From IMG/VR virus record IMGVR_UViG_3300027673_000001, positions 82,759 through 146,758 of that record: 64,000 nucleotides of DNA. One strand, 5' to 3'. The stretch comes from a virus. Taxonomy: Duplodnaviria; Heunggongvirae; Uroviricota; Caudoviricetes. Shown here piece by piece: positions 20,999 to 62,949 of the stretch (position 1 is the first letter of the stretch; the number at the start of each line of letters is the position of its first letter). The translations under genes were made by a program, and so were the position numbers. The notes beneath the pieces are model-generated. The model was not told where the DNA came from. It worked only from the letters and a program-made list of their open reading frames with translations, and ran no database searches.

Positions 20999-21177
20999 TT
21001 TCTACTCCTTGTTTCGCTATGTCTCTATTATAAAGGAACCTTGAATAAAAATCTAGGCCTGTTTCTGGAGAGAAAGATACCGGTGGTAGAGCCCAAGTAT
21101 TAGGCTCCAGTCCCGGGAAGGGCCACAGTTCAGGATGCTTCTATAGTAAAGCACCTGGCTGTCGATGAACTCCCTAC

Positions 21178-21881: not shown

Positions 21882-21900
21882 TTTGATTCCTTTCAGAATT

Positions 21901-22158: not shown

Positions 22159-22166
22159 TGTGTCTC

Positions 22167-22783: not shown

Positions 22784-22792
22784 TACTTTTCC

Positions 22793-23798: not shown

Positions 23799-23854
23799 TT
23801 CGTGTACCTCTTGTTTCGCTATGTCTCTATTATACGGCAGGCTTGAATAAATGT

Positions 23855-24250: not shown

Positions 24251-24260
24251 AATTATCTCC

Positions 24261-24557: not shown

Positions 24558-24576
24558 GGATTAAATTTCAAGAGGT

Positions 24577-37789: not shown

Positions 37790-37824
37790 ATTTGTTCCTT
37801 GTTGTGGTGATTGTTTATTTAGGT

Positions 37825-40996: not shown

Positions 40997-41964
40997 TAAA
41001 ATCCCTTAATCTTTCTGTACTGAACCCAACCCTTGAGGTTTCCACTCCACAGATTTCCTTCCATATCCACATGGGAGACTCCCTTCTCGAAAGCCTCGTG
41101 GAGGTAGAATCTTGGATTCTCCATGGGGGTTGCCTGATGCTCTGTAGGGGAAGCATGGGCTTGTCTGTTTCCTGGAGTAAGATTCAGCATATCGAAAATC
41201 TTTTGTGCTTTCTCAACGCTAGTATCGTTCTTTCGATAGGATACCTGAGCGCAACAGCTAACGGAAATCTTCATTGCTTCATCTAGCGTGACTTCGATGC
41301 CCTCTGACCAATATTTACCTTCGCGCCTTTCGACGTAGGGCAAGTGCCATTCCCCGGGTGCGAGATGTTGAGGAGTAGAATGATGCCTAGCATCCCTGAC
41401 GCACTTCGCAAGCTCATGAATTTCTGGTTGCGCATCGTCATGATCCCTGAGCCAAAGGAAGTTGTCCCACTCAGTGCCACTCACAACAGAACGAACCATC
41501 ATGAATGGCTCAGTAACCCGGTTCACTACCTGCTTATGATTACCAAGTTCTGCCAGGGCCTTTGCGGAATCAATTGCGTTTGACGCAGCCAAACCCCATG
41601 CAATCTGAGATTTTAGGATTTCATCCTGCCCCAGCTCTTCAACGGCAGTCATCCCAGGTTTGTTCTTACCCCAATAAACAGGAACAGCCATGTTTTCAAG
41701 TATCTGCTTGTGCATGGCTTCAACAGGGATAGCACGGCTAGAGGCTGTGTTCTTGCTCAACATCCTATGTGTATTGAGTTCCGCAAGGATAAACCTCGGG
41801 TACTCAAGCTCCATAGTTACCATCCTATTGCCAATATCGTTTATGGAGTCAGCCACAACCCTAGCACTGATTCCGTTCTTACCTACAACCTTAACTGATT
41901 TCATGTCAATCTCCGTGATGTTTGAGGACTTCTTTGTTGCGAAGTTCTCGATGTATTTCTTCAA
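40996..41964 (-). CDS. thyX: flavin-dependent thymidylate synthase ThyX
   Basis: ThyX motif RHR-x7-S: THRMLSKNTASSRA. Confidence 0.7.
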   Translation of the reverse strand: MKKYIENFATKKSSNITEIDMKSVKVVGKNGISARVVADSINDIGNRMVTMELEYPRFILAELNTHRMLSKNTASSRAIPVEAMHKQILENMAVPVYWGKNKPGMTAVEELGQDEILKSQIAWGLAASNAIDSAKALAELGNHKQVVNRVTEPFMMVRSVVSGTEWDNFLWLRDHDDAQPEIHELAKCVRDARHHSTPQHLAPGEWHLPYVERREGKYWSEGIEVTLDEAMKISVSCCAQVSYRKNDTSVEKAQKIFDMLNLTPGNRQAHASPTEHQATPMENPRFYLHEAFEKGVSHVDMEGNLWSGNLKGWVQYRKIKGF

Positions 41965-42463
41965 AGGACCAGGGAGCCATATCCGCCGGACAGCGAGTAT
42001 CTATACCTACATCCATGGAGCGACCATGTGGTTTCGTCATAAGTCCCCCATGAACGTGCCCAAAAAGGTGGTATGAGCCATCATGCATATGCTGCCACTC
42101 CCTCATTGGATAATGGAACAGAACAATGGCGATCTTATCCACGCTGATTTTCTTGTAGTCCTGAACAGTGACGAACATGGACTGAATGGATTTGTCTCCT
42201 CGGATCACTTTATCGTGGTTGCCAAGGATTAGGTGTTTCTGTCCGTTCAACCTACGAACGATGCTCTTGGTTTCCTCGGCATTACCAAAGCTAAAGTCTC
42301 CTAGGAAGTAGACTGTGTCGTTTTGGCGAACTCGATTGTTGTGGGCCTCGATCATGAGCTCATTCATATGTAGAACGGTTTCCCCAAACCTAGTGTTGGG
42401 ACAGAACTTCTGAATGTTCTTATGATAGAAGTGGTTGTCTGATGTGAAAAATACGTTGTTCAT
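41906..42463 (-). CDS. calcineurin-like metallophosphoesterase
   Basis: SDNHFYH, GDFSFGN, GNHD motifs. Confidence 0.65.
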   Translation of the reverse strand: MNNVFFTSDNHFYHKNIQKFCPNTRFGETVLHMNELMIEAHNNRVRQNDTVYFLGDFSFGNAEETKSIVRRLNGQKHLILGNHDKVIRGDKSIQSMFVTVQDYKKISVDKIAIVLFHYPMREWQHMHDGSYHLFGHVHGGLMTKPHGRSMDVGIDTRCPADMAPWSFEEIHRELRNKEVLKHHGD

Positions 42464-44639: not shown

Positions 44640-44978
44640 ATGGAAATGGCAGGTATATTGGGTCTTGCTTCTGGGCTTCCGGGAGCCTTCAGCGTGGTCT
44701 TCTCTTTTACAGCTCTGGCTGTTTCTACATGGCTGTACTTCAAAAGAGTAGGTCTAGAGAAGGAGAAAACTGAGAGTTCGGTGCATGACCTTCAAATCAA
44801 ATCATTGATAGAACAGATAGAGCTTTTGTCTACTGAGCTTTCCAGCGCCAGAATACAAATATCTGTCATCCACACGCAAAACTTGGAGCTCATGGCTCAA
44901 TTAAGAACCGCGAACTCCAAGATTAACGAATTGGAGAGCATCCTCTCCAAATCATCAGACAGCTCAAAGAGTCTTTAA
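44640..44978 (+). CDS. type-II membrane protein with coiled coil (i-spanin-like?)
   Basis: N-terminal TM (ILGLASGLPGAFSVVFSFTALAV) followed by heptad-rich region. Confidence 0.4.
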   Translation: MEMAGILGLASGLPGAFSVVFSFTALAVSTWLYFKRVGLEKEKTESSVHDLQIKSLIEQIELLSTELSSARIQISVIHTQNLELMAQLRTANSKINELESILSKSSDSSKSL

Positions 44979-45440
44979 GCGATCCGCACAGATAGAAGCT
45001 GCCCAGGAGTTTGGCTTAACCACAGGGTCAAGACCACAAACCCCCTTGATGTATCCAACAGCTTCACCAAGGGCGCAGGAGCTTCCATGGATTTCCAAGG
45101 GGTTGATATCCAAGTGAAGCTCAACGTGTCGCTTCTCGAGATCGACAGCTTCGGACACCTTCAAGTACAGTTCGGCGATTTTCATCACCTCTGTCATCAA
45201 ACGCATCTTTGGTCGATCTAGGTTGCGATCATAGTCTCGCTCCCTTTGTACCTCACCGAACACTTTTGCTCCGTGCTTTCCGTCTATATGGACAGCCACG
45301 ATAAGCAAGTAGTCGACCATCCAAACCCCATCAACATTCACACGCTCGGAGTCCGCACCAAAGTAAATCTTTGTTTCCGCAGATTGTGATTCGATGTATG
45401 ACTTCAGTGTTTCGATGTCGATGGTGATTTGCCGTGCCAT
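44964..45440 (-). CDS. hypothetical protein
   Basis: 158-aa ORF. Confidence 0.4.
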   Translation of the reverse strand: MARQITIDIETLKSYIESQSAETKIYFGADSERVNVDGVWMVDYLLIVAVHIDGKHGAKVFGEVQRERDYDRNLDRPKMRLMTEVMKIAELYLKVSEAVDLEKRHVELHLDINPLEIHGSSCALGEAVGYIKGVCGLDPVVKPNSWAASICADRLKTL

Positions 45441-46902: not shown

Positions 46903-47690
46903 GTCAAAACCTCTTTGATACCTGAGAACTTTGTTTCACTATGGAGCGATAGAACCTCAGGGTAATGATCTATCGCCCAATCTCTAAACCACCCAGAGCA
47001 AAGAGTGGTGCATACCTTATCGAGGGACTTCATGAATGCCATCTTGGAAGGGTACTTCCAATCTTTAGGCACCATGAATCTCTCGATTGCAATTGTGTAG
47101 GCCTCCTCTGCCACACAAAAGTTCTTCTCTTCAACTGTGAACTTTTCCCACTTTTCTTTCGAGCAGAATACCTGTTCACCGTCCTCTAACATTCTAACAT
47201 ACATTGGCTTTTCCGTAAAGGCGACCAAGGTATGAATATAGTCATGGTCAAAGACCTTAACCACTGCATCATCGAAGAACTCGTCCTTGGACTTCTTCAG
47301 ACTGATAATGTGTTGACTGAACTCCCTTCTTGAGAGTTCCATCCTAACATCGAGAAAATCCTTGTCTTTTTCCGTAATCTCAATGGCGTGATGTTTCAAG
47401 AACTTGTGGTAGTGAGTGATATGCTTTTGGAACCCCAGATCTCTCCACAGATGGCTTCTCTTAATCAGAGCCAGACCCTTCATGGAAACTACCCTGAGCT
47501 CAGAACCATTAAACTTGATTACGTTGTCTGTTGCGAACTGCTCAATGTCTGCATTGTTTAGGAAGTCAAGCCTGTGGTGTTCTGTCCCTTCTATTGGGTG
47601 GGGAGATACAACATCCCAATCAGCGTCTTTCTTAAGCGAAAAAGACGGATCGTGGTAGGCTATAGCCCTCGAGCCGATCAGTAGGTTCAT
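46899..47690 (-). CDS. hypothetical protein
   Basis: 263-aa ORF. Confidence 0.4.
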   Translation of the reverse strand: MNLLIGSRAIAYHDPSFSLKKDADWDVVSPHPIEGTEHHRLDFLNNADIEQFATDNVIKFNGSELRVVSMKGLALIKRSHLWRDLGFQKHITHYHKFLKHHAIEITEKDKDFLDVRMELSRREFSQHIISLKKSKDEFFDDAVVKVFDHDYIHTLVAFTEKPMYVRMLEDGEQVFCSKEKWEKFTVEEKNFCVAEEAYTIAIERFMVPKDWKYPSKMAFMKSLDKVCTTLCSGWFRDWAIDHYPEVLSLHSETKFSGIKEVLT

Positions 47691-48469
47691 ACATCAAACG
47701 TCTTCAGTTTGAAGGGGAAGGCTTCAGTGTAGGTTTCATTTGGGTAACCCTTGGGATTCGCCAAAACTCTAGTTTCACACACCATGTAATCCACTGGCTC
47801 GTGCATATGCCCATGAACCCAAACTTTGATGTTGGGGTTATAGCACATGAAGTCCGACAGGTCCGAGGCATAACCCCCGTTCATCTCAAAGTCGTCCTGG
47901 AACTTAGCAGGCACAGATCGAAAAGATGGAGCGTGATGAGTCATCACAACCATGGGTTTGCCTTTCTCGGCTTCCTTCTTCAGGGCCTCGAGAGTGATTG
48001 AGTGTCTGTTCTTTGTGTCCACGGGACGAAGCTTGCGGTAGATGTTGACAACCTTGTCATCGTATGTGATGGCTTGGTAGTCATTCATGTACTGCCCAAC
48101 GGACCAGTTGGTCAACGGGCAGCCCTTGTTGAGGTTGGTCCACAAAGTCCCACCAAACAAGGTAACGTCGCCCAAGTCAACAACCTCATCATTGAGGAAT
48201 GTGATTCCGTGCTTGGCGTATTCTTCTTTCAGTTTTGGCAACGTCTTGTTGAAGTAGCCACCATAGAATTCATGATTACCTGCGACTGCGTAGATGCGAG
48301 GAAATTTGCTTGCCAGATCAGCCAAGAAACCCTGATAGTGGTCCTTGTGCATCTTGTCGCCAATTAGGATGTCGCCAGCGAGAAGTAGAACGTCTGCTTC
48401 TACATCATTCACCAAACGAGTAGAGTGATTGAACTCCATATGGAGATCACTGGCAAAGGCGATTTTCAT
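47687..48469 (-). CDS. calcineurin-like metallophosphoesterase
   Basis: DLHMEF, AGDILIGD, GNHEFY, HHAP motifs. Confidence 0.6.
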   Translation of the reverse strand: MKIAFASDLHMEFNHSTRLVNDVEADVLLLAGDILIGDKMHKDHYQGFLADLASKFPRIYAVAGNHEFYGGYFNKTLPKLKEEYAKHGITFLNDEVVDLGDVTLFGGTLWTNLNKGCPLTNWSVGQYMNDYQAITYDDKVVNIYRKLRPVDTKNRHSITLEALKKEAEKGKPMVVMTHHAPSFRSVPAKFQDDFEMNGGYASDLSDFMCYNPNIKVWVHGHMHEPVDYMVCETRVLANPKGYPNETYTEAFPFKLKTFDV

Positions 48470-48896: not shown

Positions 48897-49525
48897 GAGT
48901 TTTCTCGAACCCAGTCTTCTCTGCTGTAAGTGTAATCCCCGAAAGTCTTTTGGAACAAGGAAGGGTCGTTGAAGCACGCCACAACAAAGTCCCTGACAGG
49001 AACAAAGTCCTCGGGCTTCTTGACCTCGAATGGAGCAACCAGGGAAACGCCTCGGCAGTAACCATACTGCTTAACAGTCATGGAGCAGGTCTGGACGTAG
49101 TCACCTTCTCGTTTCAGACGTTCCTCTTCTTCTTTCCATTTGTCAAAGAATGTACGGTCGTTGTCTTCGAACTTGGATTCCCATGCCACAATTTTCTTTC
49201 TCTTCTTGTTCTTGCCTAGGTACTTGTAGACAGGAACGGAGTTGGCGAAAATATCGTCTTCGTCTTTTCTTTCGTTCTTGAAGGAGTTGTAAGCGATGTC
49301 GCTATTTTTGTCCGAGTACTCAAGCCTTGGATGAACCAACCAAACAACCACTTGGTGGGAGCCGTGCATAAAAGCAACATCATCCCACCAAGTGTATTCC
49401 CTCTCGTCATCATAAACGTGATAGATCTTTAGACCTAGCTTATGATTCCAACGGCTATCGTTCTTTGCTTTCTTGGCGTAACGCTTACTTTTCTCGATGA
49501 GGGCTTCGATGTAGCGATTCTTCAT
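48893..49525 (-). CDS. hypothetical protein
   Basis: 210-aa ORF. Confidence 0.4.
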   Translation of the reverse strand: MKNRYIEALIEKSKRYAKKAKNDSRWNHKLGLKIYHVYDDEREYTWWDDVAFMHGSHQVVVWLVHPRLEYSDKNSDIAYNSFKNERKDEDDIFANSVPVYKYLGKNKKRKKIVAWESKFEDNDRTFFDKWKEEEERLKREGDYVQTCSMTVKQYGYCRGVSLVAPFEVKKPEDFVPVRDFVVACFNDPSLFQKTFGDYTYSREDWVRENS

Positions 49526-50286
49526 ATGTCACCTTCGTGCAGTTCCCTGAACTTTCTTTTGGCTTCTGACAACATGAAAACCTTTTCGTTGTCATTGGAC
49601 CAGTCTTCCTCGAGAGGCTTGAAGTTGATACTGTGGGGTTCGTTCTCGTCGTAGGCCCAGCCCAGAGTCTTCATCATTTTGTGTTTGACCAAAAGATTTG
49701 GGCTCCGAAAAACCTCAGTATCCTGAAAACCAAGCATAACGCCTATCTCAGCCACTGCGCCACTTCGGCAAATGCCTGCGTGACAGTGAACAATGACATT
49801 GGTGTTTTTCTCCAATGCTTTCTGAAGCAGCCCAACCAAAGTGTCGGCGTCTTTCTGAGTGACAGCAAAGCCAGACATGTCGATCATTGTTCCAGACCCG
49901 TCGTTGGTCATCCCATCTTTTTCTATGTCCAGAAATTTGAACTGATGAACTTCCCTGAAATCCTTTAGAGGTTGAGGGAATTCCATGTCGGGGTCAACGA
50001 TTTGGATGAGCATCGAGTTGGGACCTGCATCAAAGTGCAAACCTCTTTTGATATCACTCAATGCTACGTTCTGAATCCAAGGCATGATATACTTTCGTTT
50101 TATGGCGGGGCGTAATCGAATCGAACGATCACCGGTATCAGCGATGGCACGGTGTTCAAGGCCGTTTTGCCTCCAAGGCGCTACACCCCAAAATCTTTGC
50201 TGGTTACGTCTTGTCCAGCTTCCAGGGAAGGGTATGACCCCCAGAACGTCTACACACTCAATCACATACCATAGATGTCTTTCCAT
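49522..50286 (-). CDS. dual-specificity/tyrosine protein phosphatase (CX5R)
   Basis: Active-site signature VHCHAGICRSGAV (HCxxGxxRS). Confidence 0.65.
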   Translation of the reverse strand: MERHLWYVIECVDVLGVIPFPGSWTRRNQQRFWGVAPWRQNGLEHRAIADTGDRSIRLRPAIKRKYIMPWIQNVALSDIKRGLHFDAGPNSMLIQIVDPDMEFPQPLKDFREVHQFKFLDIEKDGMTNDGSGTMIDMSGFAVTQKDADTLVGLLQKALEKNTNVIVHCHAGICRSGAVAEIGVMLGFQDTEVFRSPNLLVKHKMMKTLGWAYDENEPHSINFKPLEEDWSNDNEKVFMLSEAKRKFRELHEGDI

Positions 50287-51730: not shown

Positions 51731-51805
51731 TGGTGCGCCCGGAGGGAATTGAACCCCCACTCGATCGATTATGAGTCGACTGCTTTACCATTAAGCTACA
51801 AGCGC
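51731..51805 (-). tRNA. tRNA-Met (CAT)
   Basis: Acceptor GCGCTTG/CGGGCGC, loop CTCATAA. Confidence 0.55.
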
Positions 51806-51812
51806 ATCAATT

Positions 51813-51890
51813 TGGTGGGATCGACGAGATTCGAACTCGTAGTCTGTTGACTCTCATTCAACAAGGTATGCCAATTCCCTTCACGATCCC
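51813..51890 (-). tRNA. tRNA, anticodon GAG by hand fold (identity uncertain)
   Basis: Acceptor GGGATCG/CGATCCC, T-arm ACGAGTTCGAATCTCGT, stem GTTGA/TCAAC loop ATGAGAG. Confidence 0.4.
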
Positions 51891-51896: not shown

Positions 51897-51978
51897 CCTA
51901 TATTGAAACACACAGTACAACGTGCGCCCTCTCAGGTCTTAAACAGCGTCCCGTACACGCCTATGCGTTTCAATATAG
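51897..51978. repeat. hairpin element H1 (conserved inverted-repeat termini, variable core)
   Basis: CCTATATTGAAACACACAG ... CTATGCGTTTCAATATAG. Confidence 0.6.
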
Positions 51979-52120
51979 CGACCCATTGTGGGCAGGACTC
52001 GAACCTGCAAGTGGCGTCTATTTCCACCGGCCCTATTAGGGACCTATGTTTACCGTTTCCATCACCACGGGTCATCGGGTTAATTACTCCCGACTACGGA
52101 GACTGATGATCAGTCAATCA

Positions 52121-52208
52121 CCATATAGAAACACACTGACCTCGGAATGACTTATGAGAATACGCGGAGTTCCGATTTAGCGTCTTTCACCAGTGTGTTT
52201 GTATATGG
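52121..52208. repeat. hairpin element H2
   Basis: CCATATAGAAACACACTG ... CAGTGTGTTTGTATATGG. Confidence 0.7.
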
Positions 52209-52324
52209 TATCACCTTTTCCCATACCTTGCGGAGTATATTCGGTATGAGCATCTAGCCGCTCTCACATTACTGTGAGCCTCCCGCTTGACACTTTGATG
52301 ATGCAAAGCCTCTTGGAAACACTA

Positions 52325-52413
52325 CCATATAGAAACACACTCAAACTGGTCTGTTCTCCTACCCCCGTACAGCCGTTCCAGACAGGAGCAAGGTAGAGTG
52401 CGTTTTTATATGG
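52325..52413. repeat. hairpin element H3
   Basis: CCATATAGAAACACACTC ... GAGTGCGTTTTTATATGG. Confidence 0.7.
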
Positions 52414-52516
52414 AATGGTACGCCATCTCACAGCCGACACAAAGAGCCCCACTACTCAACAACTCTGCCGTTACCTAGGTGGGCAGTTTTCCGAGGGTAG
52501 TTTCGTTTGCGTTATA

Positions 52517-52605
52517 CCATATAGAAACACACTAGCCAATACAGATTGATTACTGCGATTGTTCAAATGCCACTCAAATTCGGCAACTAGTGTATTTGTA
52601 TATGG
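52517..52605. repeat. hairpin element H4 (terminal TGG = CCA of tRNA-Lys)
   Basis: CCATATAGAAACACACTAG ... CTAGTGTATTTGTATATGG. Confidence 0.7.
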
Positions 52606-52677
52606 TAGGGGTGGAGAATTTCGAAATCTCGACTCACCGGGTAAAAGCCGGTTACTCTGCCTCTGAGTTACACCCCC
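52603..52677 (-). tRNA. tRNA-Lys (TTT)
   Basis: D-arm GCTCAGAGGCAGAGT, stem ACCGG/CCGGT, loop CTTTTAC; 3' CCA lies inside hairpin element. Confidence 0.6.
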
Positions 52678-52682
52678 AAATA

Positions 52683-52759
52683 TGGTCCCTCGCCTCAGAT
52701 TCGAACTGAGACCTCACGGATTAAGAGTCCGGTACGCTAACCATTAACGCCAGCGAGGG
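52683..52759 (-). tRNA. tRNA (anticodon CTT by hand fold, Lys?)
   Basis: Perfect acceptor CCCTCGC/GCGAGGG, T-arm CTCAGTTCGAATCTGAG, loop CTCTTAA. Confidence 0.45.
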
Positions 52760-52866
52760 AAAGCTCAAGTAAAGATTGTCTTTAGAGTGCTTTCCGGGAC
52801 CATACTTGGGTGGTTCAGGAAAACACTGGTTGTTTACCAGGTTTCATTTCTTTCTCCGTTAAAATT

Positions 52867-52941
52867 TGGTGCCCCTTGACGGAATCGAACCGCCACCCCT
52901 GGATTACAAAACCAGTCCACTGCCATTATGATTAAAAGGGC
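52867..52941 (-). tRNA. tRNA-Thr (TGT)
   Basis: Acceptor GCCCTTT/AAGGGGC, loop TTTGTAA. Confidence 0.55.
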
Positions 52942-52959
52942 TTGTCTTTGTAAGTATCT

Positions 52960-52988
52960 AGTATAGCATACTCACGATTAAAAGTAAA
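52960..52988 (-). promoter_or_regulatory. sigma70-like promoter TTTACT-N17-TATACT inside tRNA cluster
   Basis: Reverse strand CATTTTACTTTTAATCGTGAGTATGCTATACT. Confidence 0.5.
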
Positions 52989-52989
52989 A

Positions 52990-53065
52990 TGGTCTGGGTG
53001 GGGAATTCCGAGATCCCGTCCTCTAGCTTCCAAAGCCAGCCGTCTGCCTCTGACAATACACCCAG
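52990..53065 (-). tRNA. tRNA-Pro (TGG)
   Basis: Acceptor CTGGGTG/CACCCAG, loop TTTGGAA; atypical T-loop. Confidence 0.5.
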
Positions 53066-53071
53066 GTTATA

Positions 53072-53148
53072 TGGCGCCTCCTGAAGGATTTGAACCCTCA
53101 ACCTCTCAGTTCGTAGCCGAGTACTCTTTCCAGTTGAGCTAAGGAGGC
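53072..53148 (-). tRNA. tRNA-Arg (ACG)
   Basis: Acceptor GCCTCCT/AGGAGGC, loop CTACGAA. Confidence 0.6.
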
Positions 53149-53153
53149 ATGAA

Positions 53154-53239
53154 TGGCGGAGAAGAGAGGACTCGAACCTCCACGCCCTTTAGAACGACAG
53201 TTTAGCAAACTGTTGCGGCTACCATTTCGCCACTTCTCC
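53154..53239 (-). tRNA. tRNA-Ser (GCT)
   Basis: Class II, acceptor GGAGAAG/CTTCTCC, loop TTGCTAA. Confidence 0.6.
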
Positions 53240-53244
53240 ATTAT

Positions 53245-53350
53245 AGGCCCACTGTCCTGGAATCGAACCAGGTTAGCCAATCGGACGGAATCGAACCGTC
53301 TCTTCGGGGTGCGCGCAAGGTCCCGGGCGCCAAGCCTACAGTGGATTAAT
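53245..53350 (-). pseudogene. tRNA-like segment with two tandem T-arm motifs (degenerate or unusual tRNA)
   Basis: CCTGGTTCGATTCCAGG and GACGGTTCGATTCCGTC 30 nt apart; complementary acceptor halves CCACTGT/ACAGTGG but ~35 nt too long for a cloverleaf. Confidence 0.3.
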
Positions 53351-53354
53351 CTTT

Positions 53355-53443
53355 TGGCTGAGGAGGTAGGGGTCGAACCTACACGGTCATTACAACCGCC
53401 AGAGTCAAAGTCTGGTGCGTCTAGCCATTTTCGCCACTCCCCA
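53355..53443 (-). tRNA. class II tRNA, Leu/Ser-like body with anticodon TTG by hand fold (identity uncertain)
   Basis: 89 nt; D-arm GCGAAAATGGCTAGACGC, stem CCAGA/TCTGG loop CTTTGAC, long variable stem CGGT..ACCG, discriminator G. Confidence 0.4.
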
Positions 53444-53550
53444 ACAAAACTTACATATATGGTATCAGCGCCACCCCACCTTAGGAAGCCAACCCCTTGA
53501 TACTATCGCCGAGCCAGCGAGGGATCGAACCTCCTGGTCTTATCTGAACA

Positions 53551-53641
53551 CCATATTCAAACTCTCTGCTGCACGCTAAGGCCACTATCACTTACCGCGG
53601 AGTTGTGCGCCGGTCTGCTCCTTCAAAGAGTTTGAATATGG
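53551..53641. repeat. hairpin element H5 (terminal TGG = CCA of tRNA-Pro)
   Basis: CCATATTCAAACTCT ... AGAGTTTGAATATGG. Confidence 0.65.
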
Positions 53642-53717
53642 TCTCGGTAGTGGGATTCGAACTCACGATCTCCTGCTCCCAAAGCAGGCGCTTTAAGCCG
53701 GACTAAGCTACACCGAG
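53639..53717 (-). tRNA. tRNA-Pro (TGG), second copy
   Basis: Stem CCTGC/GCAGG loop TTTGGGA; 3' CCA lies inside hairpin element. Confidence 0.5.
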
Positions 53718-53803
53718 ATTATCTTTACTCATCTATTATTCTCTCGGGCAGTTGCACCCGCCCTTCCCTCTACCAATTGTGCAAACTGTTAGAGGAGTAC
53801 TCT

Positions 53804-53878
53804 TGGTACCTGGTGACGGGATTGAACCGCCGACAGCCTGCTTGTAAGGCAGGAGCTCTACCGCTGAGCTAACCAGGC
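53804..53878 (-). tRNA. tRNA-Val (TAC)
   Basis: Acceptor GCCTGGT/ACCAGGT, loop CTTACAA. Confidence 0.6.
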
Positions 53879-54461
53879 ATTGTTTGGAGCAGGTAGCCAG
53901 TAACGATCTGGTCTATTCAAGTTTGGAAGACTCGCGTGTATCCGTAAACACCTTACCTGCATTATCTTGGTGGAGGCCGTCGGTATCGAACCGATCTAGA
54001 CACGAATCTTGCAAGGATCCGCCGCAGCCCTCTGCTGCCCCCATGAATCTTTCTATACTGAAGAACACTGTAGCTGGACTTTCACCAATCTTATCAGTAC
54101 ACGAATCTTACCAATGCTCTTTAGCATAGTGGAGTGCTGAGAATACACACTTACCGGGCAACACTTCAGACATTATAGTAGGCCTTGCGAGCTTACCTTC
54201 TTCTGACTTCCACTGAGACCTCTTTCGGAGTATCACAGTATGCTACCAACATCGCCGTTTAGAGACAGGCATTAGTCTTGTCGTCATATGCTATTCTACG
54301 CTTTCCTTCCCGTTGACCTTGCGAGCCATTCAAGTGCGCTAACACTTTACGAAACATCCTGCATAAACAGATTTCGCCTTGCGAGCTACGTCTGACTTGA
54401 TTATCTTTCGACTCAAGTATTAGATGTCTTTCACATACGACCGGAGCAGTCTTTGCTTTTT

Positions 54462-54532
54462 GTATAAGGTTGGATTCGAACCAACAGCCTATTCCTTAAC
54501 AGGGAACTGCACTACCATTGTGCTACTTGAAA
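54462..54532 (-). pseudogene. tRNA-Asn(GTT)-like pseudogene
   Basis: Good D-arm GCACAATGGTAGTGC, stem GTTCC/GGAAT loop CTGTTAA, T-arm GTTGGTTCGAATCCAAC, but acceptor stem pairs only 4/7. Confidence 0.3.
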
Positions 54533-55021
54533 CCTACTGCGATGTGCTGCTCCAGTTGCTGCGTAAATTTTTGATCTACACAATACAACACACCACGTAC
54601 CTTTTGCCTTGCGAGCTACTCAGTCGTACTCTGCGATCGGTGTTCCTGCCCAGAAGGCACAGCCCACTAACCACTCATACTGCATTCTAGCCCTTGGCTG
54701 CAAAACCTCGGACACGAACACTACCCTTTCTCATACCTATTGGCTGGTTGGTTTTGCATGGAAGTCAGCACCACCTGTTACTTTTCTCGAACCCCAGTTC
54801 CTTGCGGCTGGTCGGCTCCAGTTCTTTCCCATACACCAGCTTCATAGTTACGTCCCCCGGTCTTATCAAGGAACGCTACCTCGCGGTAGTGAGCAGGCTT
54901 GCGTAAATGAACTATCTCTAGCGGAGTTATGTAGGAATACCTCCTTTGGGTCCTTCACAGGACTTATTCTTCGTAGTGGCGAACCACCACAGGACATTAC
55001 GCTGCCCTTAAAACTTCTTTG

Positions 55022-55094
55022 CTCCGTACCTTGGAATCGAACCAAGCTTCAAGGATTAACAGTCCTCTGCCCACACCGTGTTTGCTTGTACGGA
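55022..55094 (-). tRNA. tRNA-Asn (GTT)-like, atypical D-arm
   Basis: Perfect acceptor TCCGTAC/GTACGGA extended by 13-bp inverted repeat, loop CTGTTAA, T-arm CTTGGTTCGATTCCAAG. Confidence 0.35.
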
Positions 55095-55116
55095 GCAAAG
55101 AAGTTTCTTTGCTATT

Positions 55117-55191
55117 TGGAGCGGGTGAAGAATTTTGAAATCTCGTCCTGTTCGTTGGCAACGAACTGCTCTGCCTCTGAGCTACACCCGC
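55117..55191 (-). tRNA. tRNA-Gly (GCC)
   Basis: Perfect acceptor GCGGGTG/CACCCGC, loop TTGCCAA. Confidence 0.55.
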
Positions 55192-55198
55192 ATCTATC

Positions 55199-55272
55199 TG
55201 GTGCTCCTGGAAAGTTTCGATCTCTCGTCTAGCCCATACCAAGGGCTTGTTCTACCATTGAACTACAGGAGC
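55199..55272 (-). tRNA. tRNA-Thr (GGT)
   Basis: Acceptor GCTCCTG/CAGGAGC, loop TTGGTAT. Confidence 0.5.
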
Positions 55273-55278
55273 AATATC

Positions 55279-55353
55279 TGGCGGTCCCAAGGGGTAACGA
55301 TCCCCTTCTTCGGCAGTGACAGTGCCGTGTGCGTCCATGAACACTTTGAGACC
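55279..55353 (-). tRNA. tRNA-Asp (GTC)
   Basis: Stem CGGCA/TGCCG loop CTGTCAC; T-loop ATCGTTA. Confidence 0.5.
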
Positions 55354-55592
55354 AAGAATTTCTGCACATCTCCATGTGGGGACTCTTACCCCAGCCTTTC
55401 TAAGATTCACCGAGATGGCCTGATGAACGCTGTTTACTTTGCGGCTCTTGCTTTCCGCTTGATTCTTCTATAACTGGAGACCGCCTACATACAGCCATGA
55501 GCCATATGCCGTCCACGTTATCCGCTTACCTTTGAACATTGACCGAACGTACTGGCCGGTTGCACAAGTGGTAAGTTTCTGTCTCCGAAACT

Positions 55593-55668
55593 TGGTGCAG
55601 GGCGTGGTATCGAACCACATTCTCCTCGAGGTCATGACTCCTTTTAGAAGCACCATGCCATACCCCGC
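55593..55668 (-). tRNA. tRNA-like, anticodon arm not resolvable by hand
   Basis: 76 nt with good acceptor GCGGGGT/GCCCTGC, T-loop TTCGATA and CCA, but internal palindromes instead of a clear anticodon stem. Confidence 0.3.
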
Positions 55669-55673
55669 TTATT

Positions 55674-55756
55674 TGGTGGAGTGAGTAGGGATCGAACCTA
55701 CCTGCCAGAGGCCACCGGGTTACAGCCGGCTAGAACACCATTGTTCCATTCACTCC
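55674..55756 (-). tRNA. tRNA-Tyr (GTA)
   Basis: Class II, acceptor GGAGTGA/TCACTCC, loop CTGTAAC. Confidence 0.55.
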
Positions 55757-55762
55757 AATATC

Positions 55763-55837
55763 TGGTACTGCTACGGGGAATCGAACCCCGCTTTCCGCCT
55801 TGAAAGGGCAGCGTCCTAACCGATAGACGATAGCAGC
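55763..55837 (-). tRNA. tRNA-Glu (TTC)
   Basis: T-arm CGGGGTTCGATTCCCCG, loop CTTTCAA. Confidence 0.55.
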
Positions 55838-55844
55838 ATTGTTT

Positions 55845-55919
55845 GGAGTTCCGTAGGGGTTTCGATCCCCTCTCACTTGGTTGAAGGCCAAGTTGCCACA
55901 CCAGCTGCATCACGGAACA
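55845..55919 (-). tRNA. tRNA with loop CCTTCAA (TTC, atypical C33)
   Basis: Perfect acceptor GTTCCGT/ACGGAAC, stem CTTGG/CCAAG. Confidence 0.4.
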
Positions 55920-55988
55920 TATTCGACGAACTGTTCAAATTAACCATCGGTCAACTTTACTTGGTTCTAGGTTTCGGTTAACCCGTTA

Positions 55989-56094
55989 CCATATTGAAGC
56001 ACACTACTGAAATTGAGGATGGTGGATTCGAACCACTCTTGGCAACCCTGCTCCTCGATGCCCGTTTCAGTCAGGCTAGTGTACTTCAATATGG
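55989..56094. repeat. hairpin element H6 (terminal TGG = CCA of tRNA-Ile; core contains a T-arm-like motif)
   Basis: CCATATTGAAGCACACTACTG ... CTAGTGTACTTCAATATGG; internal GGTGGATTCGAACCAC. Confidence 0.65.
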
Positions 56095-56165
56095 TACCCA
56101 GTACTGGTAACGATCCAGTGTCTATCGATTATCAGTCGATTGCTCTGCCTTTGAGCTAACCGGGT
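56092..56165 (-). tRNA. tRNA-Ile (GAT)
   Basis: D-arm GCTCAAAGGCAGAGC, stem ATCGA/TCGAT loop CTGATAA; CCA lies inside hairpin element. Confidence 0.55.
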
Positions 56166-56264
56166 AGGTTTATGGTAGCCGTGCTGAAGCCTCGGCTTGG
56201 TGGGTTACCTAAGGTGTTGGGTCACCATCTCCAAACACCATCAGCGCATCAGCCTGCGCACTTA

Positions 56265-56358
56265 CCATATTGAAACACACAGAAGCTCTCTTATCCGCAT
56301 CACTAGACATTTTGTCGTAGCGTCGGTCATTGTACCCGATCGATGTGTTTCAATATGG
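56265..56358. repeat. hairpin element H7
   Basis: CCATATTGAAACACACAG ... GATGTGTTTCAATATGG. Confidence 0.7.
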
Positions 56359-56504
56359 AACCTTTGTGAGACCCCGTTATACCACCTACTTTTCAAGAAT
56401 CTTGCAGCCTGCTTATCCGGATTGACGCCGCTACTGCTGGGTTACCCCGTTCACAAAGGTCATTAGTTTCGAGTAGAGATAACACGAACTCTACACTCTA
56501 CTTA

Positions 56505-56582
56505 CCATATTGAACCACACTGGATAACCACCATACTTCCGGGTCTTACGCCGGCTATGTCTCTCAATGTGTTTCAATATGG
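56505..56582. repeat. hairpin element H8 (abuts orphan T-arm GTCGGTTCGAGTCCGAC + CCA)
   Basis: CCATATTGAACCACACTGG ... CAATGTGTTTCAATATGG. Confidence 0.65.
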
Positions 56583-56704
56583 TGTCGGACTCGAACCGAC
56601 AGTCTAAACGGATTTGACACTCGGTAGTACTACCTCCGAGCGCCACACATACATCCAGGAATCACCCCTTATCTCTGTGTGCTGCATCTAAACTATAACC
56701 TATA

Positions 56705-56791
56705 CCATATTGAACCACACTAAAAGTAATCTAACACCCGTTGGTCCGTGGAGCCCGAATGCTGAAAGAAATCTAGTACAGTTCAATATGG
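56705..56791. repeat. hairpin element H9
   Basis: CCATATTGAACCACACTA ... TAGTACAGTTCAATATGG. Confidence 0.65.
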
Positions 56792-56951: not shown

Positions 56952-56981
56952 ATTGTAGCACACAACCGATTAAAAGTAAAC
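56952..56981 (-). promoter_or_regulatory. sigma70-like promoter GTTTAC-N18-TACAAT
   Basis: Reverse strand CAGGTTTACTTTTAATCGGTTGTGTGCTACAAT upstream of tRNA/hairpin array. Confidence 0.5.
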
Positions 56982-57295
56982 CTGTTTAGGCTGATGTCTC
57001 CTTAAACCTCTACCTGGATTCGAACTCAGGCCCTCTGGCAACCCCTATATGGGCTGGCGTGCAGGCACCCAGCACCTTAGAGGACTCATCTTAGTTCCGC
57101 GGCAACGTTGGTCGATGAGAGGAGAATCAGACTATCTGACGATTGCCGTCATCAGCCTAAACAGCACTTTGTTAACGAACTACCGACAAGCCTCGATCAA
57201 CTTGCCTTCTTATATCTCTATTATAGTGCCAAAACGATTAAATTTCAACACCTTTTGCTTCAGTGCCTTTCGGCGACTTCTGCTACACAAATCAC

Positions 57296-57324
57296 AGTAT
57301 AACAGTCCTAGGATTAAACGTCAA
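57296..57324 (-). promoter_or_regulatory. sigma70-like promoter TTGACG-N17-TATACT
   Basis: Reverse strand GCTTGACGTTTAATCCTAGGACTGTTATACT; second similar element at ~57215-57250. Confidence 0.5.
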
Positions 57325-57325: not shown

Positions 57326-57354
57326 CACAAACAAGAAACCCTGCGAAGTGCAGG
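57326..57354 (-). terminator. rho-independent terminator
   Basis: Hairpin CCCTGCACTTCGCAGGG followed by TTTCTTGTTTGT on minus strand, downstream of gene 57525..57929. Confidence 0.55.
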
Positions 57355-57524
57355 GTCTTAGTATGAACTTGTGTTGCATCTAAAACCCTACGATACTCTA
57401 CCCTCGATAAGGGGGCGGTAGGAGACTTGCATGGCATCACTATGCCAATTGGTTGTCTGCTTCGCGGTGGTAAAGGATTTTTGTGTCATACAGTATATAG
57501 TCGTCTCTACACCAAAATTGGTGC

Positions 57525-62253: not shown

Positions 62254-62949
62254 ATGTCCAGCAATAGTATTTATTGCGTTTACCTCACCATCTACAGGGG
62301 TAACAAGCTTCCCCCATTCTATATTGGCTCATCATCCGTAGAAAAGGTTGAGCGAGGCTACCATGGCTCTGTTGGCTCGAAACAATACGGGAAGATATGG
62401 AAGAAAGAACTAAAACACCACCCCGAACTCTTTGAAACGAAAGTCCTTTCTACCTACTCATCTAGAGAAGAAGCAACCAAACGAGAGAACTATTTGCACC
62501 ACACATTGAATGTAGTGAGGAATCCTTTATACACTAACCTATGGTATGCAGTAGTAAACGGGTTTAGAGGATACAACTCAAAAGGTAAAATGAATTCAAT
62601 GTACGGGAAGAAGCGCCCCGACTCAGCAGAGAGAATGAGACAATACAACCCAATGCACAACCCAGTGACTAAAGCAAAAGTTGGTAAGTCACTAAAAGGA
62701 AGGGTTGCACCAAACAAAGGGAAAAGGAACCCACGCCAATCAAAGAGATTCACTGAGTCAAATCCTATGAAGGACAAAAGAGTTGTGGCAAAGATGCTAG
62801 CATCTAGGACACCGGAGTCTATAGGTAAGGGTAAGATTTGGGTAGCAAACACAATCACAAAAGAACGAAGTCGAATCCAGCCAGAGGACTTAGAACATAT
62901 GAAAAGTTCTGGCTGGATTCGACTAGCTAACAAAAAGCCAATACCTTAA
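62254..62949 (+). mobile_element. GIY-YIG homing endonuclease gene (Seg-like), free-standing between nrdA and downstream genes
   Basis: 231-aa + strand ORF inserted in minus-strand region; IYCVYLTIYRGNKLPPFYIGSSS..Y.GS motif plus basic NUMOD-like C-terminal half. Confidence 0.7.

What the first reader, a model, noticed from the sequence alone, without database searches (positions are those of the whole stretch)
51897..56791. Family of ~90-nt hairpin elements with conserved terminal inverted repeats interleaved with tRNA genes, several incorporating the tRNA CCA end
At least nine elements share ~18-20-bp near-perfect inverted-repeat termini (CCATAT[A/T]GAAACACAC ... GTGTGTTT[C/G][A/T]ATATGG) around unrelated 45-60-nt cores. 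In four cases (after tRNA-Lys 52603, tRNA-Pro 53639, tRNA-Ile 56092 and an orphan T-arm at 56582) the outer TGG of the repeat is the encoded CCA of the upstream tRNA or tRNA-like sequence, so the tRNA 3' end would be base-paired in a long duplex. One core (H6) carries its own T-arm-like motif. Candidate roles are RNase III-type processing sites or 3' trailers of the polycistronic tRNA precursor, structured small RNAs, or MITE/cassette-like recombination units that shuffle tRNA genes. They are not a CRISPR array, since the repeats are inverted and not direct.
Basis: seen in the sequence. Interest (0 to 1): 0.75.

Follow-up and report, generated by a model that had tools for sequence, protein, structure and literature searches.

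The report
Conserved-stem hairpin cassettes behind phage tRNAs
The nine hairpins are real members of a large, apparently undescribed family of transcribed hairpin elements (one conserved 17-19 bp stem, many different middles) that start exactly on the CCA end of tRNAs, above all tRNA-Lys(UUU), in the tRNA islands of uncultured T4-like phages and one cultured cyanophage.

Summary
Observation confirmed and extended. The window is part of a T4-like phage. Its tRNA/ncRNA island lies on the minus strand and holds nine hairpins with near-identical 18-nt arms (19 arm matches against 1.6 expected). On the tRNA-sense strand, stem mismatches are G.U pairs (11 G.U, 5 mismatches); on the other strand they are mismatches (1 G.U, 15 mismatches). 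The same arms occur in at least 145 sources (252 distinct elements), nearly all phage tRNA clusters. The elements always point the same way as the tRNAs. 96 of 181 begin on a tRNA's encoded CCA, and 33 end on G1G2 of the next tRNA. The upstream tRNA is strongly biased: Lys(UUU) 37/96, then Gln(UUG), Glu(UUC), Leu(UAG). Cores are mostly unrelated. Some form conserved families: H6 is a T-arm-bearing RNA with covariation. Identical cores sit at different tRNA junctions, and copy number ranges from 0 to 9 per island. One filled/empty site pair exists. I found no Rfam match, no paper and no GenBank isolate with the canonical arms; Synechococcus phage BUCT-ZZ01 carries diverged copies. Best reading: transcribed spacer hairpins that act as a double-stranded RNA processing or 3'-end module of the polycistronic tRNA precursor and also drive recombinational shuffling. 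The enzyme is unknown.

The parts
51898..51978 (-). H1 hairpin, T-type arms. It starts CUA, is preceded by a tRNA-like RNA, and ends 7 nt before tRNA-Leu(GAG) at 51890.
   Evidence: 16 WC + 2 G.U of 18 on the sense strand, against 2 mismatches on the antisense strand
52121..52208 (-). H2 hairpin, A-type arms with a C.C mismatch at stem position 8. It follows a non-tRNA RNA ending GAUACCA.
52325..52413 (-). H3 hairpin, A-type arms with an A.C mismatch at stem position 8. Its core has homologues in L066 and L001.
52517..52605 (-). H4 hairpin, A-type arms. Its first three bases are the CCA of tRNA-Lys(UUU).
   Evidence: Lys(UUU) is the family's preferred upstream tRNA
53551..53641 (-). H5 hairpin fused to the CCA of tRNA-Pro(UGG). 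The outer arm is canonical; the inner arm is changed on both sides (CUCUUUG/CAGAGAG).
55989..56094 (-). H6 hairpin fused to the CCA of tRNA-Ile(GAU). Its core is a conserved T-arm-bearing small RNA: P1, hairpin A, then P2 enclosing hairpin B and the T-arm.
   Evidence: 13 distinct homologues, and 17 of 35 pairs show a compensatory change
56265..56358 (-). H7 hairpin, T-type arms. It follows a 146-nt non-tRNA RNA ending GGUUCCA.
56505..56582 (-). H8 hairpin, T-type arms. Its CCA is the end of the T-arm-ending RNA upstream.
56705..56791 (-). H9 hairpin, T-type arms with 3 G.U pairs. Its core family is present in 11 viral loci, and in L068/L103 it directly follows GOLLD.
52603..52677 (-). tRNA-Lys(UUU), whose A73-CCA is paired into H4.
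53639..53717 (-). tRNA-Pro(UGG), whose CCA is paired into H5.
56092..56165 (-). tRNA-Ile(GAU), whose CCA is paired into H6.
56583..56704 (-).
51979..52120 (-). Segment between H2 and H1 that holds a tRNA-like RNA (ARAGORN 'tRNA-???' 51984-52071; T-arm + CACAAUGGGUCG). The same family precedes hairpins in L035, L074, L094, L110, L004 and L073.
52209..52324 (-). Non-tRNA RNA between H3 and H2, ending GAUACCA.
52414..52516 (-). Non-tRNA RNA between H4 and H3, ending GUACCAUUCCA.
56359..56504 (-). Non-tRNA RNA between H8 and H7, ending GGUUCCA.
57220..57324 (-). Two sigma-70-like promoter matches (11/12 and 10/12) at the 5' end of the RNA island. A terminator-like site lies just upstream at 57336-57358.
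   Evidence: consensus matches only

Best explanation
The elements are transcribed spacer cassettes of the phage's polycistronic tRNA/ncRNA precursor. Each is an RNA hairpin whose 17-19 bp stem is conserved in sequence. The stem starts on the encoded (A)CCA of the upstream tRNA or other CCA-ending RNA and ends at or a few nucleotides before the next gene. It encloses a 30-90 nt core that differs from copy to copy.

Proposed mechanism (inferred, not shown). The stem forms co-transcriptionally and stacks directly on the upstream acceptor stem with its ACCA paired. It then acts as a double-stranded RNA processing or 3'-end-definition module. A duplex-specific endonuclease (host RNase III is the default candidate), together with RNase P at the downstream gene, cuts the precursor there. 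The upstream tRNA is protected from 3' exonucleases until it is released, and the hairpin, with whatever core it carries, comes out as a separate small RNA. The module is kept preferentially behind tRNA-Lys(UUU), Gln(UUG) and Glu(UUC).

At the DNA level, the many near-identical arms act as portable homology in a highly recombinogenic T4-like genome. Hairpins, cores and the tRNA genes between them are therefore gained, lost and exchanged.

Shown: sense-strand pairing, polarity, the junction rule, the tRNA bias, deep conservation of the arms, and mobility. Inferred: transcription, cleavage, the enzyme, and any effect on tRNA yield.
For: RNA-level, sense-strand folding:
- In the window, stems have 11 G.U and 5 mismatches on the sense strand, against 1 and 15 on the antisense strand.
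- In the family, G.U vs A.C outside the two consensus-asymmetric positions is 111 vs 22, p = 1.7e-15.
- Stem position 16 is U.G 133, C-G 41, U-A 7 and never a mismatch. Position 7 swaps A-U (91) and U-A (87). Positions 11 and 18 also covary.
- Arms pair better with their own partner than with shuffled partners: 95.6% vs 89.1 +/- 0.3%.
- H5, L240, L243, L247 and L254 have different stems with compensatory changes.

Polarity: the asymmetric positions 8 and 16 never appear in the reverse sense relative to the tRNAs.

Junction rule:
- 96 of 181 elements start exactly on an ARAGORN tRNA's CCA, and 33 end with G1G2 of the next tRNA.
- 1732 of 1775 tRNAs encode CCA.
- The other upstream neighbours are recurrent non-tRNA RNAs that also end in ACCA.
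- The MFE fold places the hairpin directly against the acceptor stem, with A73-CCA paired.

Selective retention:
- Lys(UUU) is upstream in 37 of 96 cases (3.9 expected), Gln 15, Glu 12, Leu(UAG) 9.
- In a sample chosen through a flanking protein and scanned without using the arm sequence, 6 of 7 tRNA-Lys(UUU) contexts carry a CCA-fused hairpin, against 13 of 212 overall.
- BUCT-ZZ01 (ThyX 45% identical to the window's) still has a related hairpin right after tRNA-Lys(UUU).

Other support: promoter-like sites lie upstream on the same strand. As precedent, E. coli RNase P removes terminator hairpins placed just after a tRNA's CCA and processes tRNA operons from 3' to 5' (PMC4176162).

Shuffling: identical cores sit at different tRNA junctions. 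L081 is filled where L027 is empty. Syntenic relatives carry 0-3 copies, against 9 here.
Against: - No transcript or cleavage data exist.
- Only about 6% of tRNAs in these islands are followed by a hairpin, and some relatives with 20 tRNAs have none in the covered region. The elements are therefore not generally required for tRNA maturation.
- The stem sequence is conserved far beyond what RNase III normally requires, which points to a more specific reader or to concerted evolution.
- No RNase III homologue occurs in the window or in about 2.5 Mb of related loci.
- A processing signal does not need a 30-90 nt core. Cores as a class are no more stable than control sequence.
- A strand-specific G.T pattern would also arise if a single DNA strand folded.
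Confidence: 0.5

Rival explanations
1. The elements are selfish, mobile palindromic DNA (MITE-, REP/RAYT- or attC-like). A DNA enzyme recognises the arms, possibly as a hairpin in one DNA strand, and inserts the element next to the CCA of tRNA genes. The RNA hairpin is a tolerated by-product.
For: - One filled/empty polymorphism, L081 vs L027.
- Copy number ranges from 0 to 9 among syntenic relatives.
- Identical cores occur at non-orthologous junctions.
- The arms are conserved in sequence, not only in pairing.
- HNH and DUF559 endonuclease genes and an uncharacterised RNase H-like (DUF458) gene recur in these islands.
- Folding of a single DNA strand would also produce a strand-specific G.T bias.
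Against: - No target-site duplication: among 136 informative cases, 5 are direct repeats and 14 are stem extensions.
- There are more than 100 unrelated interiors rather than one shared interior.
- Orientation is 100% the same as the tRNAs.
- No transposase or integrase appears among about 52 window ORFs scanned.
- A hairpin is retained at the tRNA-Lys(UUU) junction down to about 45% protein identity.
- The empty site carries an ordinary spacer (GTTTAT), not a footprint.
Confidence: 0.22
2. The elements are a modular small-RNA system. The conserved stem is a handle bound by one dedicated protein, as the Y RNA stem is bound by Ro60. The variable cores are effector domains, for example tRNA mimics or decoys against tRNA-targeting host defences.
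For: - Stem sequence conservation exceeds what pairing requires.
- Some cores are conserved structured RNAs with a T-arm: 20 of 181 cores, including the H6 family with covariation.
- Core families persist at a divergence where GOLLD is about 75% identical.
- A 488-aa DUF2828/DUF7788 protein lies in the tRNA islands of 14 loci. I recall, but did not test, that DUF2828 proteins carry a vWA domain and are related to the TROVE domain of Ro60.
- The hairpins are enriched behind Lys(UUU), Gln and Glu tRNAs. From my own knowledge, these are the classical targets of anticodon nucleases.
Against: - The Rfam YrlA model does not match any element at E <= 1.
- No TROVE/Ro or DUF2828 gene is in this window.
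- Most cores are singletons (107 of 139 clusters) and no more structured than background.
- Copy number is very variable.
- DUF2828 gave no PDB sequence match, so its Ro-likeness is untested.
Confidence: 0.18
3. The elements are CRISPR-related mimics: solitary-repeat-like RNAs or mini-arrays. This lead comes from the AUUGAAAC string in the T-type arms, which equals the common 8-nt crRNA 5' handle (my own knowledge).
For: The only support is the ATTGAAAC/ATTGAAGC string in T-type arms.
Against: - The repeats are inverted, not direct.
- Half the family has AUAAAAAC instead.
- Cores match nothing outside other hairpins and tRNA T-arms in about 1.2 Mb of related phage DNA.
- No cas genes were seen.
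Confidence: 0.03

Closest known systems
RNase III processing stems (the stems flanking 16S/23S rRNA; phage T7 early-mRNA RNase III sites)
   Same: A duplex about two helical turns long is formed by sequences flanking an RNA unit inside a polycistronic transcript. Sites within one phage share sequence. Mismatches or internal loops occur in the stem. (Own knowledge of these systems.)
   Different: Here the stem encloses spacer cores rather than the functional RNA. It is fused to the tRNA CCA, is conserved across very divergent phages, and carries long variable loops. Cleavage is untested, and no rnc gene was found.
Hairpins just 3' of tRNA CCA that RNase P removes in E. coli val/lys tRNA operons (PMC4176162)
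   Same: A stem-loop lies directly after an encoded CCA in a polycistronic tRNA transcript, lysine tRNAs are involved, and endonucleolytic removal starts processing.
   Different: The E. coli hairpins are Rho-independent terminators at operon ends. These elements are internal, lack a U-tract, have 17-19 bp sequence-conserved stems, and pair the CCA itself.
PeSL (promoter-early stem-loop) cassettes of T4-type phages (PMC4122927, PMC2839356)
   Same: Short repeated motifs containing a stem-loop, located in plastic regions of T4-like genomes, that serve as points of homologous exchange and cause indels and modular shuffling.
   Different: PeSLs are promoter/terminator composites flanking ORFs. 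The hairpins here contain no promoter or terminator match, sit in tRNA islands, are fused to CCA, and have variable interiors.
Transcribed palindromic repeats of bacteria (Neisseria Correia/nemis elements, ERIC, REP/BIME)
   Same: Dispersed inverted-repeat elements that are co-transcribed, fold as RNA hairpins, and in some cases are cut by RNase III or RNase E. They show copy-number variation. (Own knowledge.)
   Different: Those elements share their interior sequence. Correia elements insert in both orientations and duplicate a TA target (own knowledge). These elements have unrelated interiors, one orientation, no target-site duplication, and a tRNA-CCA junction.
Y RNA / YrlA
   Same: The ends pair into a long stem that is conserved in sequence, the other end of the RNA varies, and a subset carries a tRNA-like T-arm module.
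   Different: No match to the Rfam YrlA model on any element. There is no Ro60 gene in the window. In H6-type elements the T-arm lies next to the closing stem, as in a tRNA acceptor/T stack.
Integron attC sites
   Same: Imperfect inverted repeats of 60-140 nt with conserved ends and a variable middle. One strand folds, and the sites lie at the 3' end of each cassette.
   Different: attC sites conserve only 7-nt cores (RYYYAAC/GTTRRRY) and need an IntI integrase (own knowledge). These elements have 17-nt conserved arms of different sequence, and no integrase was found.

Membership tests
CRISPR array | Direct repeats regularly interspaced with spacers | tested here: not met
   The arms are inverted pairs with alternating orientation and irregular spacing.
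MITE / IS-derived miniature transposon | Terminal inverted repeats | tested here: met
   17-18 nt arms.
MITE / IS-derived miniature transposon | Target-site duplication flanking the element | tested here: not met
   In 45 cases both flanks are TA, which is ambiguous. Among the other 136 cases, 5 are direct repeats and 14 are reverse complements, i.e. stem extension.
MITE / IS-derived miniature transposon | Copies share their internal sequence | tested here: not met
   139 core clusters among 181 elements, 107 of them singletons.
MITE / IS-derived miniature transposon | A cognate transposase with matching TIRs somewhere in the genome | tested here: inconclusive
   None among about 52 window ORFs scanned. 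The genome is incomplete.
Integron attC | R''/R' core sites RYYYAAC...GTTRRRY and an adjacent IntI integrase | tested here: not met
   The arm ends are CCATAT...ATATGG. No integrase was found in the window ORFs scanned.
Rho-independent terminator | A GC-rich stem followed by a U-tract | tested here: not met
   The stems are AU-rich and are followed by UA(A/U). None of the nine hairpins was called by the terminator scan.
PeSL cassette | An early promoter plus a terminator stem-loop in one about 50-70 bp unit | tested here: not met
   No promoter-like match lies inside any hairpin.
RNase III substrate | About 20 bp of near-continuous duplex RNA | tested here: met
   17-18 conserved pairs, plus A73.U and often U72.A extensions.
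RNase III substrate | Staggered cleavage by RNase III | not testable with these tools
   Needs an in vitro assay or end-mapping.
Y RNA / YrlA (RF02553) | A match to the covariance model | tested here: not met
   The only YrlA hit (24.7 bits, gathering score 69) lies on tRNAs at 51759-51864, not on any hairpin.
Y RNA / YrlA (RF02553) | A linked Ro60/Rsr (TROVE) gene | tested here: not met
   None in the window ORFs scanned. A DUF2828/DUF7788 protein occurs in 14 related loci, but its relation to TROVE was not testable.
tRNA (for the H6 core) | A cloverleaf recognised by ARAGORN or Rfam RF00005 | tested here: not met
   Not called. Only a T-arm and a 5-bp acceptor-like P2 are present.
Any Rfam 15 family | A covariance-model match at E <= 1 on a hairpin | tested here: not met
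   The only overlap is a chance-level mir-653 hit (22.9 bits against a gathering score of 77) on H3.

The most novel reading that the evidence does not exclude
The conserved stem is a universal adaptor. It would let a phage lineage plug arbitrary small RNAs into its tRNA precursor and have them excised and bound by one dedicated, still unidentified factor. That makes it a natural modular 'RNA cassette' system. Some payloads are tRNA mimics. The preferred position behind tRNA-Lys(UUU), Gln and Glu would reflect a role in countering host anticodon nucleases or in controlling the supply of exactly those tRNAs.
Probability: 0.15. Interest if true: 0.9.

Novelty: new variant of a known kind. Interest (0 to 1): 0.72.

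Why it matters
Phage tRNA islands are usually treated as plain lists of tRNA genes. This one shows a second, conserved layer. A sequence-defined hairpin module occurs in hundreds of copies across an uncultured T4-like lineage. It is welded to the functional CCA end of particular tRNAs, and it wraps a changing set of small RNAs that sit beside GOLLD and other unknown RNAs.

If the module controls precursor processing, it would be a virus-specific way to set the yield or timing of tRNA-Lys, tRNA-Gln and tRNA-Glu, which (from my own knowledge) are the tRNAs that host anticodon nucleases attack. If it is a recombination module, it explains how tRNA gene sets are reshuffled so quickly between related phages.

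It is directly testable. A cultured carrier exists, Synechococcus phage BUCT-ZZ01, on the genetically tractable host S. elongatus PCC 7942. The elements are also a practical annotation warning: they and 28 tRNAs are unannotated in that GenBank record.

Tried and rejected
- Megablast and blastn of the 5.1-kb region against 50,697 phage records found no relative apart from tRNA and GOLLD pieces.
- A loop-less 42-nt arm query against the same collection gave only chance hits.
- A scan of one genome from each of 185,579 bacterial and archaeal species gave isolated matches at about the number expected by chance. Three short MAG contigs had paired arms and are probably binned phage DNA (not examined further).
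- The window's own contig is not in IMG/VR.
- Rfam at E <= 1 matched no hairpin.
- Full-text searches for the arm sequences returned 0 papers. Searches on tRNA-cluster hairpins, GOLLD, PeSL, S-CRM01/S-CREM1 and BUCT-ZZ01 found no description of these elements.
- Spacer-like cores are rejected: cores match nothing except other hairpins and T-arms.
- 'Cores are generally structured' is rejected: z = -0.42 vs -0.30 for controls.
- 'Cores are replaced rather than drifting' is left undecided. Identity among syntenic pairs is bimodal, either >= 97.6% or at the random level. However, those genomes are only about 70-80% identical in coding DNA, so saturation is not excluded.
- The alternative register, in which arms flank tRNAs as extended acceptor stems, is rejected as the main form. 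Most hairpin-adjacent tRNAs have an arm on one side only, and arm subtypes co-vary within a hairpin.
- The apparent CCA-fused hairpin in Xanthomonas phage X1 is the acceptor stem of a tRNA gene interrupted by about 140 nt. Stenotrophomonas phage DLP6 has none.
- An A-to-I editing idea (A.C mismatch plus a neighbouring deaminase) was dropped. The deaminase is of the ComEB/dCMP type, not TadA.
- PDB sequence searches with the DUF2828 and DUF458 proteins gave nothing useful.

Full report
WHAT THE WINDOW IS. The window encodes gp32, a T4 baseplate protein, T4-type RNase H, PhoH, ThyX, ribonucleotide reductase, DNA ligase and dCMP deaminase. The nearest cultured phages by gp32 are cyanomyoviruses and Pelagibacter phage HTVC008M, at only 43-53% identity. 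It is therefore an uncultured T4-like myovirus. ARAGORN finds 32 tRNA genes, all on the minus strand, between 50300 and 56165. Rfam adds a GOLLD RNA (216 bits) inside the same island. The best sigma-70-like promoter matches in the region lie on the minus strand just upstream of the island (57324-57296 and 57248-57220), behind a terminator-like site.

CHECK OF THE OBSERVATION. Nine inverted-repeat elements are present (coordinates under 'parts'). The arm motif occurs 19 times at up to 3 mismatches, against 1.56 expected. Read on the tRNA-sense strand, the 162 stem positions give 146 Watson-Crick pairs, 11 G.U and 5 mismatches. Read on the other strand, they give 146, 1 and 15. Folding energies favour the sense strand in eight of the nine elements; H2 is the exception. 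H4, H5 and H6 begin on the encoded CCA of tRNA-Lys(UUU), tRNA-Pro and tRNA-Ile. H8 begins on the CCA of an RNA that ends with a T-arm. In MFE folds of tRNA plus hairpin, the hairpin abuts the acceptor stem with no unpaired nucleotide, and A73-C74-C75-A76 are all paired. Only the strand and the scale were missed.

THE FAMILY.
- Distribution. 106 of these carry at least 3 tRNAs. With later loci I count 252 distinct elements in 145 sources.
- Consensus, from 181 distinct elements oriented by their tRNAs: CCAUAUW(G/A)AAACACAYU-core-AGUGUGUUUCWAUAUGG, total length 63-195 nt, median 85.
- Covariation. Position 7 is A-U in 91 elements and U-A in 87. Position 16 is U.G in 133, C-G in 41 and U-A in 7, and is never a mismatch. 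Positions 11 and 18 also covary.
- Strand bias. Position 8 is G-C (87) or an A.C mismatch (75). Outside positions 8 and 16, G.U outnumbers A.C by 111 to 22 (p = 1.7e-15).
- Polarity. The two asymmetric positions never occur in the reverse sense, so every element is co-oriented with the tRNAs.
- Subtypes. There are two arm subtypes: T-type (UAUUGAA...UUCAAUA, fully paired) and A-type (UAUAAAA...UUUCUAUA, with the A.C mismatch).

JUNCTION RULE. 96 of 181 elements start exactly on the CCA of an ARAGORN tRNA. In 33, the last two G's are +1 and +2 of the next tRNA, and others end 4-14 nt before it. Nearly all tRNAs in these phages encode CCA (1732 of 1775). Where the upstream neighbour is not a tRNA, it is one of several recurrent non-tRNA RNAs that also end in ACCA. 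One such family is the tRNA-like RNA before H1. In L068 and L103 the upstream neighbour is the 3' end of GOLLD. Ordinary inter-tRNA spacers are 5-8 nt of the type AGUUUUAU. A hairpin is in effect an expanded spacer.

NON-RANDOM POSITION. The upstream tRNA is Lys(UUU) in 37 of 96 cases (3.9 expected), Gln(UUG) in 15, Glu(UUC) in 12 and Leu(UAG) in 9. tRNA-Met is over-represented downstream. Shared ancestry inflates these counts. The hairpins behind tRNA-Lys nevertheless carry more than 30 unrelated cores under virtually invariant A-type arms. I made an independent check with 33 loci found through the phosphatase gene that flanks the island (54-66% identity), scanned with a hairpin detector that ignores the arm sequence. 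It gave 13 CCA-fused hairpins among 212 tRNA contexts, and 6 of the 7 tRNA-Lys(UUU) contexts had one. The cultured Synechococcus phage BUCT-ZZ01 (ThyX 45% identical) has 28 unannotated tRNAs and at least five diverged elements. One of these lies directly after tRNA-Lys(UUU) and keeps the same inner stem, GCACAUU/AGUGUGC. A hairpin behind tRNA-Lys(UUU) is therefore old and has been retained.

THE CORES. Within the window the cores are unrelated. Across the family there are 139 clusters, of which 107 are singletons.
- Some cores are real RNA families. The H6 core occurs in 23 viral loci. An RNAalifold consensus of 13 distinct members gives P1 (the arms), an invariant hairpin A (its invariance follows from the exact-match search pattern), and a 5-bp P2 enclosing hairpin B and a T-arm. 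17 of 35 pairs show compensatory change. Several members have closing stems of quite different sequence.
- The H9 core occurs in 11 loci, and H3 has two homologues.
- 20 of 181 cores contain a T-loop motif, usually 4 nt from the 3' arm.
- As a class, however, cores are not more stable than control segments (z = -0.42 vs -0.30).
- Cores match nothing outside other hairpins and tRNA T-arms.

MOBILITY.
- The same core lies behind different tRNAs in different phages. For example, ACUAAGAGUCCAGGUUCAGAGCGUGGCAU follows Glu, Pro and Lys. An identical 37-nt core follows Gln in L045 and sits between Lys and His in L081.
- L027 has an ordinary GTTTAT spacer at the Lys-His junction where L081 has a hairpin, and their flanks are identical. 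This is the only such pair I found.
- Syntenic relatives carry 0-3 hairpins in the covered part of their islands, against nine here.
- tRNA order differs widely between relatives.
- There is no target-site duplication.
- Core identity among syntenic pairs is either >= 97.6% or at the random level. The genomes concerned are only about 70-80% identical in coding DNA, so I cannot separate replacement from saturation.

WHAT IT MOST LIKELY IS. The data fit a transcribed spacer cassette whose conserved duplex acts on the RNA. It would define and protect the 3' end of the upstream CCA-ending RNA, and provide a cleavage site that separates units of the precursor. The arms also act as dispersed homology for recombination in the DNA. 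RNase III is the default enzyme for a 17-20 bp duplex. RNase P is known to remove hairpins placed just after a tRNA CCA and to process lysine/valine tRNA operons from 3' to 5' in E. coli (PMC4176162). Neither cleavage is shown here.

Three facts argue against a simple RNase III signal: the degree of sequence conservation, the long cores, and the dispensability at most junctions. These facts keep two rivals alive. One is a selfish palindromic DNA element. The other is an adaptor stem read by a dedicated protein, as in Y RNAs. Candidate partners seen in related islands are an uncharacterised RNase H-like DUF458 protein, DUF2828/DUF7788, and HNH and DUF559 endonucleases. DUF458 is also encoded in the window at 44964-45440 and lies inside the tRNA islands of unrelated tRNA-rich phages. 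None of these is linked specifically to the hairpins.

NOVELTY. I found no Rfam family, no paper containing the arm sequence, and no description in the phage tRNA, GOLLD, PeSL or cyanophage papers I checked. No GenBank isolate has canonical arms. The parts have precedents: processing stems, tRNA-operon spacer RNAs, PeSL-type recombination motifs, and transcribed palindromic repeats. The combination does not, as far as these sources show. That combination is one conserved stem, many cores, fusion to the CCA end, and a preference for tRNA-Lys, tRNA-Gln and tRNA-Glu. I file it as a new variant of a known kind and rate it of high interest, because a cultured phage-host pair makes it testable.

Noticed in passing
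window 54113-55019 (-): GOLLD RNA. Rfam RF02032 scores 216 bits on 54134-54596, with tRNA-Asn(GUU) at 54461-54532 inside it. BLAST shows about 900 nt conserved at about 75% identity in L046, L003, L103, L068, L007 and L113. In L068 and L103 its 3' end (...CCUCCACCA) runs straight into an H9-type hairpin.
   Followed up: partly
window 55011-55106 (-): A second tRNA-Asn (55021-55094), just upstream of GOLLD, is flanked by a perfect 19-bp inverted repeat (AAACTTCTTTGCTCCGTAC/GTACGGAGCAAAGAAGTTT). Leader and trailer therefore extend the acceptor stem. No CCA is encoded, unlike almost all other tRNAs here.
   Followed up: no
window 51979-52120, 52209-52324, 52414-52516, 56359-56504, 56583-56704 (-): Five 100-146 nt segments between hairpins contain no tRNA called with a normal anticodon (ARAGORN calls only a 'tRNA-???' in 51984-52071) and no plausible ORF, and four of them end in CCA. 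Related loci hold recurrent families of such CCA-ending RNAs, for example ...GAGGACCGGGAUUCC...CAGCAACACUG..ACCA in 7 loci and a T-arm + CACAAUGRRUY family in 7 loci. They look like undescribed small RNAs.
   Followed up: partly
window 53967-54045 (-): A tRNA-like element of about 78 nt (GGGGGCAGCAG...GGUUCGAUACCGACGGCCUCCACCA) is not called by ARAGORN or Rfam. It is conserved at 77-82% in 8 other viral loci.
   Followed up: no
window 52942-53071, 53240-53354, 53444-53549, 55354-55673 (-): Further gaps in the island contain T-arm motifs. There are two in 53240-53354. Folding shows an apparent cloverleaf (GCGGGGUAUGG...GGUUCGAUACCACGCCCUGCACCA) near the 5' end of the 55354-55673 segment. These may be degenerate or non-canonical tRNAs.
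   Followed up: no
window 44964-45440 (-): A DUF458/PF04308 RNase H-like protein of unknown function. Homologues lie within the flanks of 40 of 119 hairpin loci. They also lie inside the tRNA islands of unrelated tRNA-rich phages: right after tRNA-Lys(UUU) in Stenotrophomonas phage DLP6, in Xanthomonas phages X1 and BUDD next to GOLLD-like sequence, and in Ruegeria/Rhodobacter phages. This is a recurrent but unexplained association with tRNA islands.
   Followed up: partly
L035 10795-12261 and 13 other loci: A 488-aa DUF2828/DUF7788 protein with a DVSGSM motif (typical of vWA domains) is embedded in tRNA islands of relatives. It is not in this window. A possible relation to Ro60/TROVE is recalled from memory and could not be tested.
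   Followed up: partly
L301 (ON615601.1, Synechococcus phage BUCT-ZZ01), locus 7600-24900: The GenBank record annotates no tRNAs here, but ARAGORN finds 28, including a CUA-anticodon tRNA. Many small 'hypothetical protein' CDS in this stretch probably overlie RNA genes.
   Followed up: partly
window 37124-39194 (-): GTP cyclohydrolase I, a 6-pyruvoyl-tetrahydropterin (QueD-type) synthase and a weak radical-SAM match lie in a row. I take this to be a 7-deazaguanine (preQ0/queuosine-type) pathway, relevant to either DNA or tRNA modification.
   Followed up: no
window 62254-62949 (+): An ORF with a NUMOD3 motif (a DNA-binding motif of homing endonucleases) lies on the opposite strand to its neighbours, next to the ribonucleotide reductase gene. 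It is probably a free-standing homing endonuclease.
   Followed up: no
window 56952-56980 and 52960-52988 (-): Two internal promoter-like sites share the motif TTTACTTTTAATCG...TA(C/T)A(A/C)T with an extended -10 TG. The island may be transcribed in several units.
   Followed up: no
L303 (Xanthomonas phage X1) 17934-18146: A tRNA-like gene has its acceptor/D-arm start and its T-arm/acceptor/CCA end separated by about 140 nt. It may be an intron-containing or otherwise interrupted tRNA.
   Followed up: no
window 40583-40996, 41906-42463, 47687-48469, 49522-50286 (-): A P-loop kinase (weak similarity to polynucleotide kinase), two metallophosphoesterases and a dual-specificity-phosphatase-like protein lie within 10 kb downstream of the tRNA island. 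They could be RNA end-healing enzymes. This was not examined.
   Followed up: no
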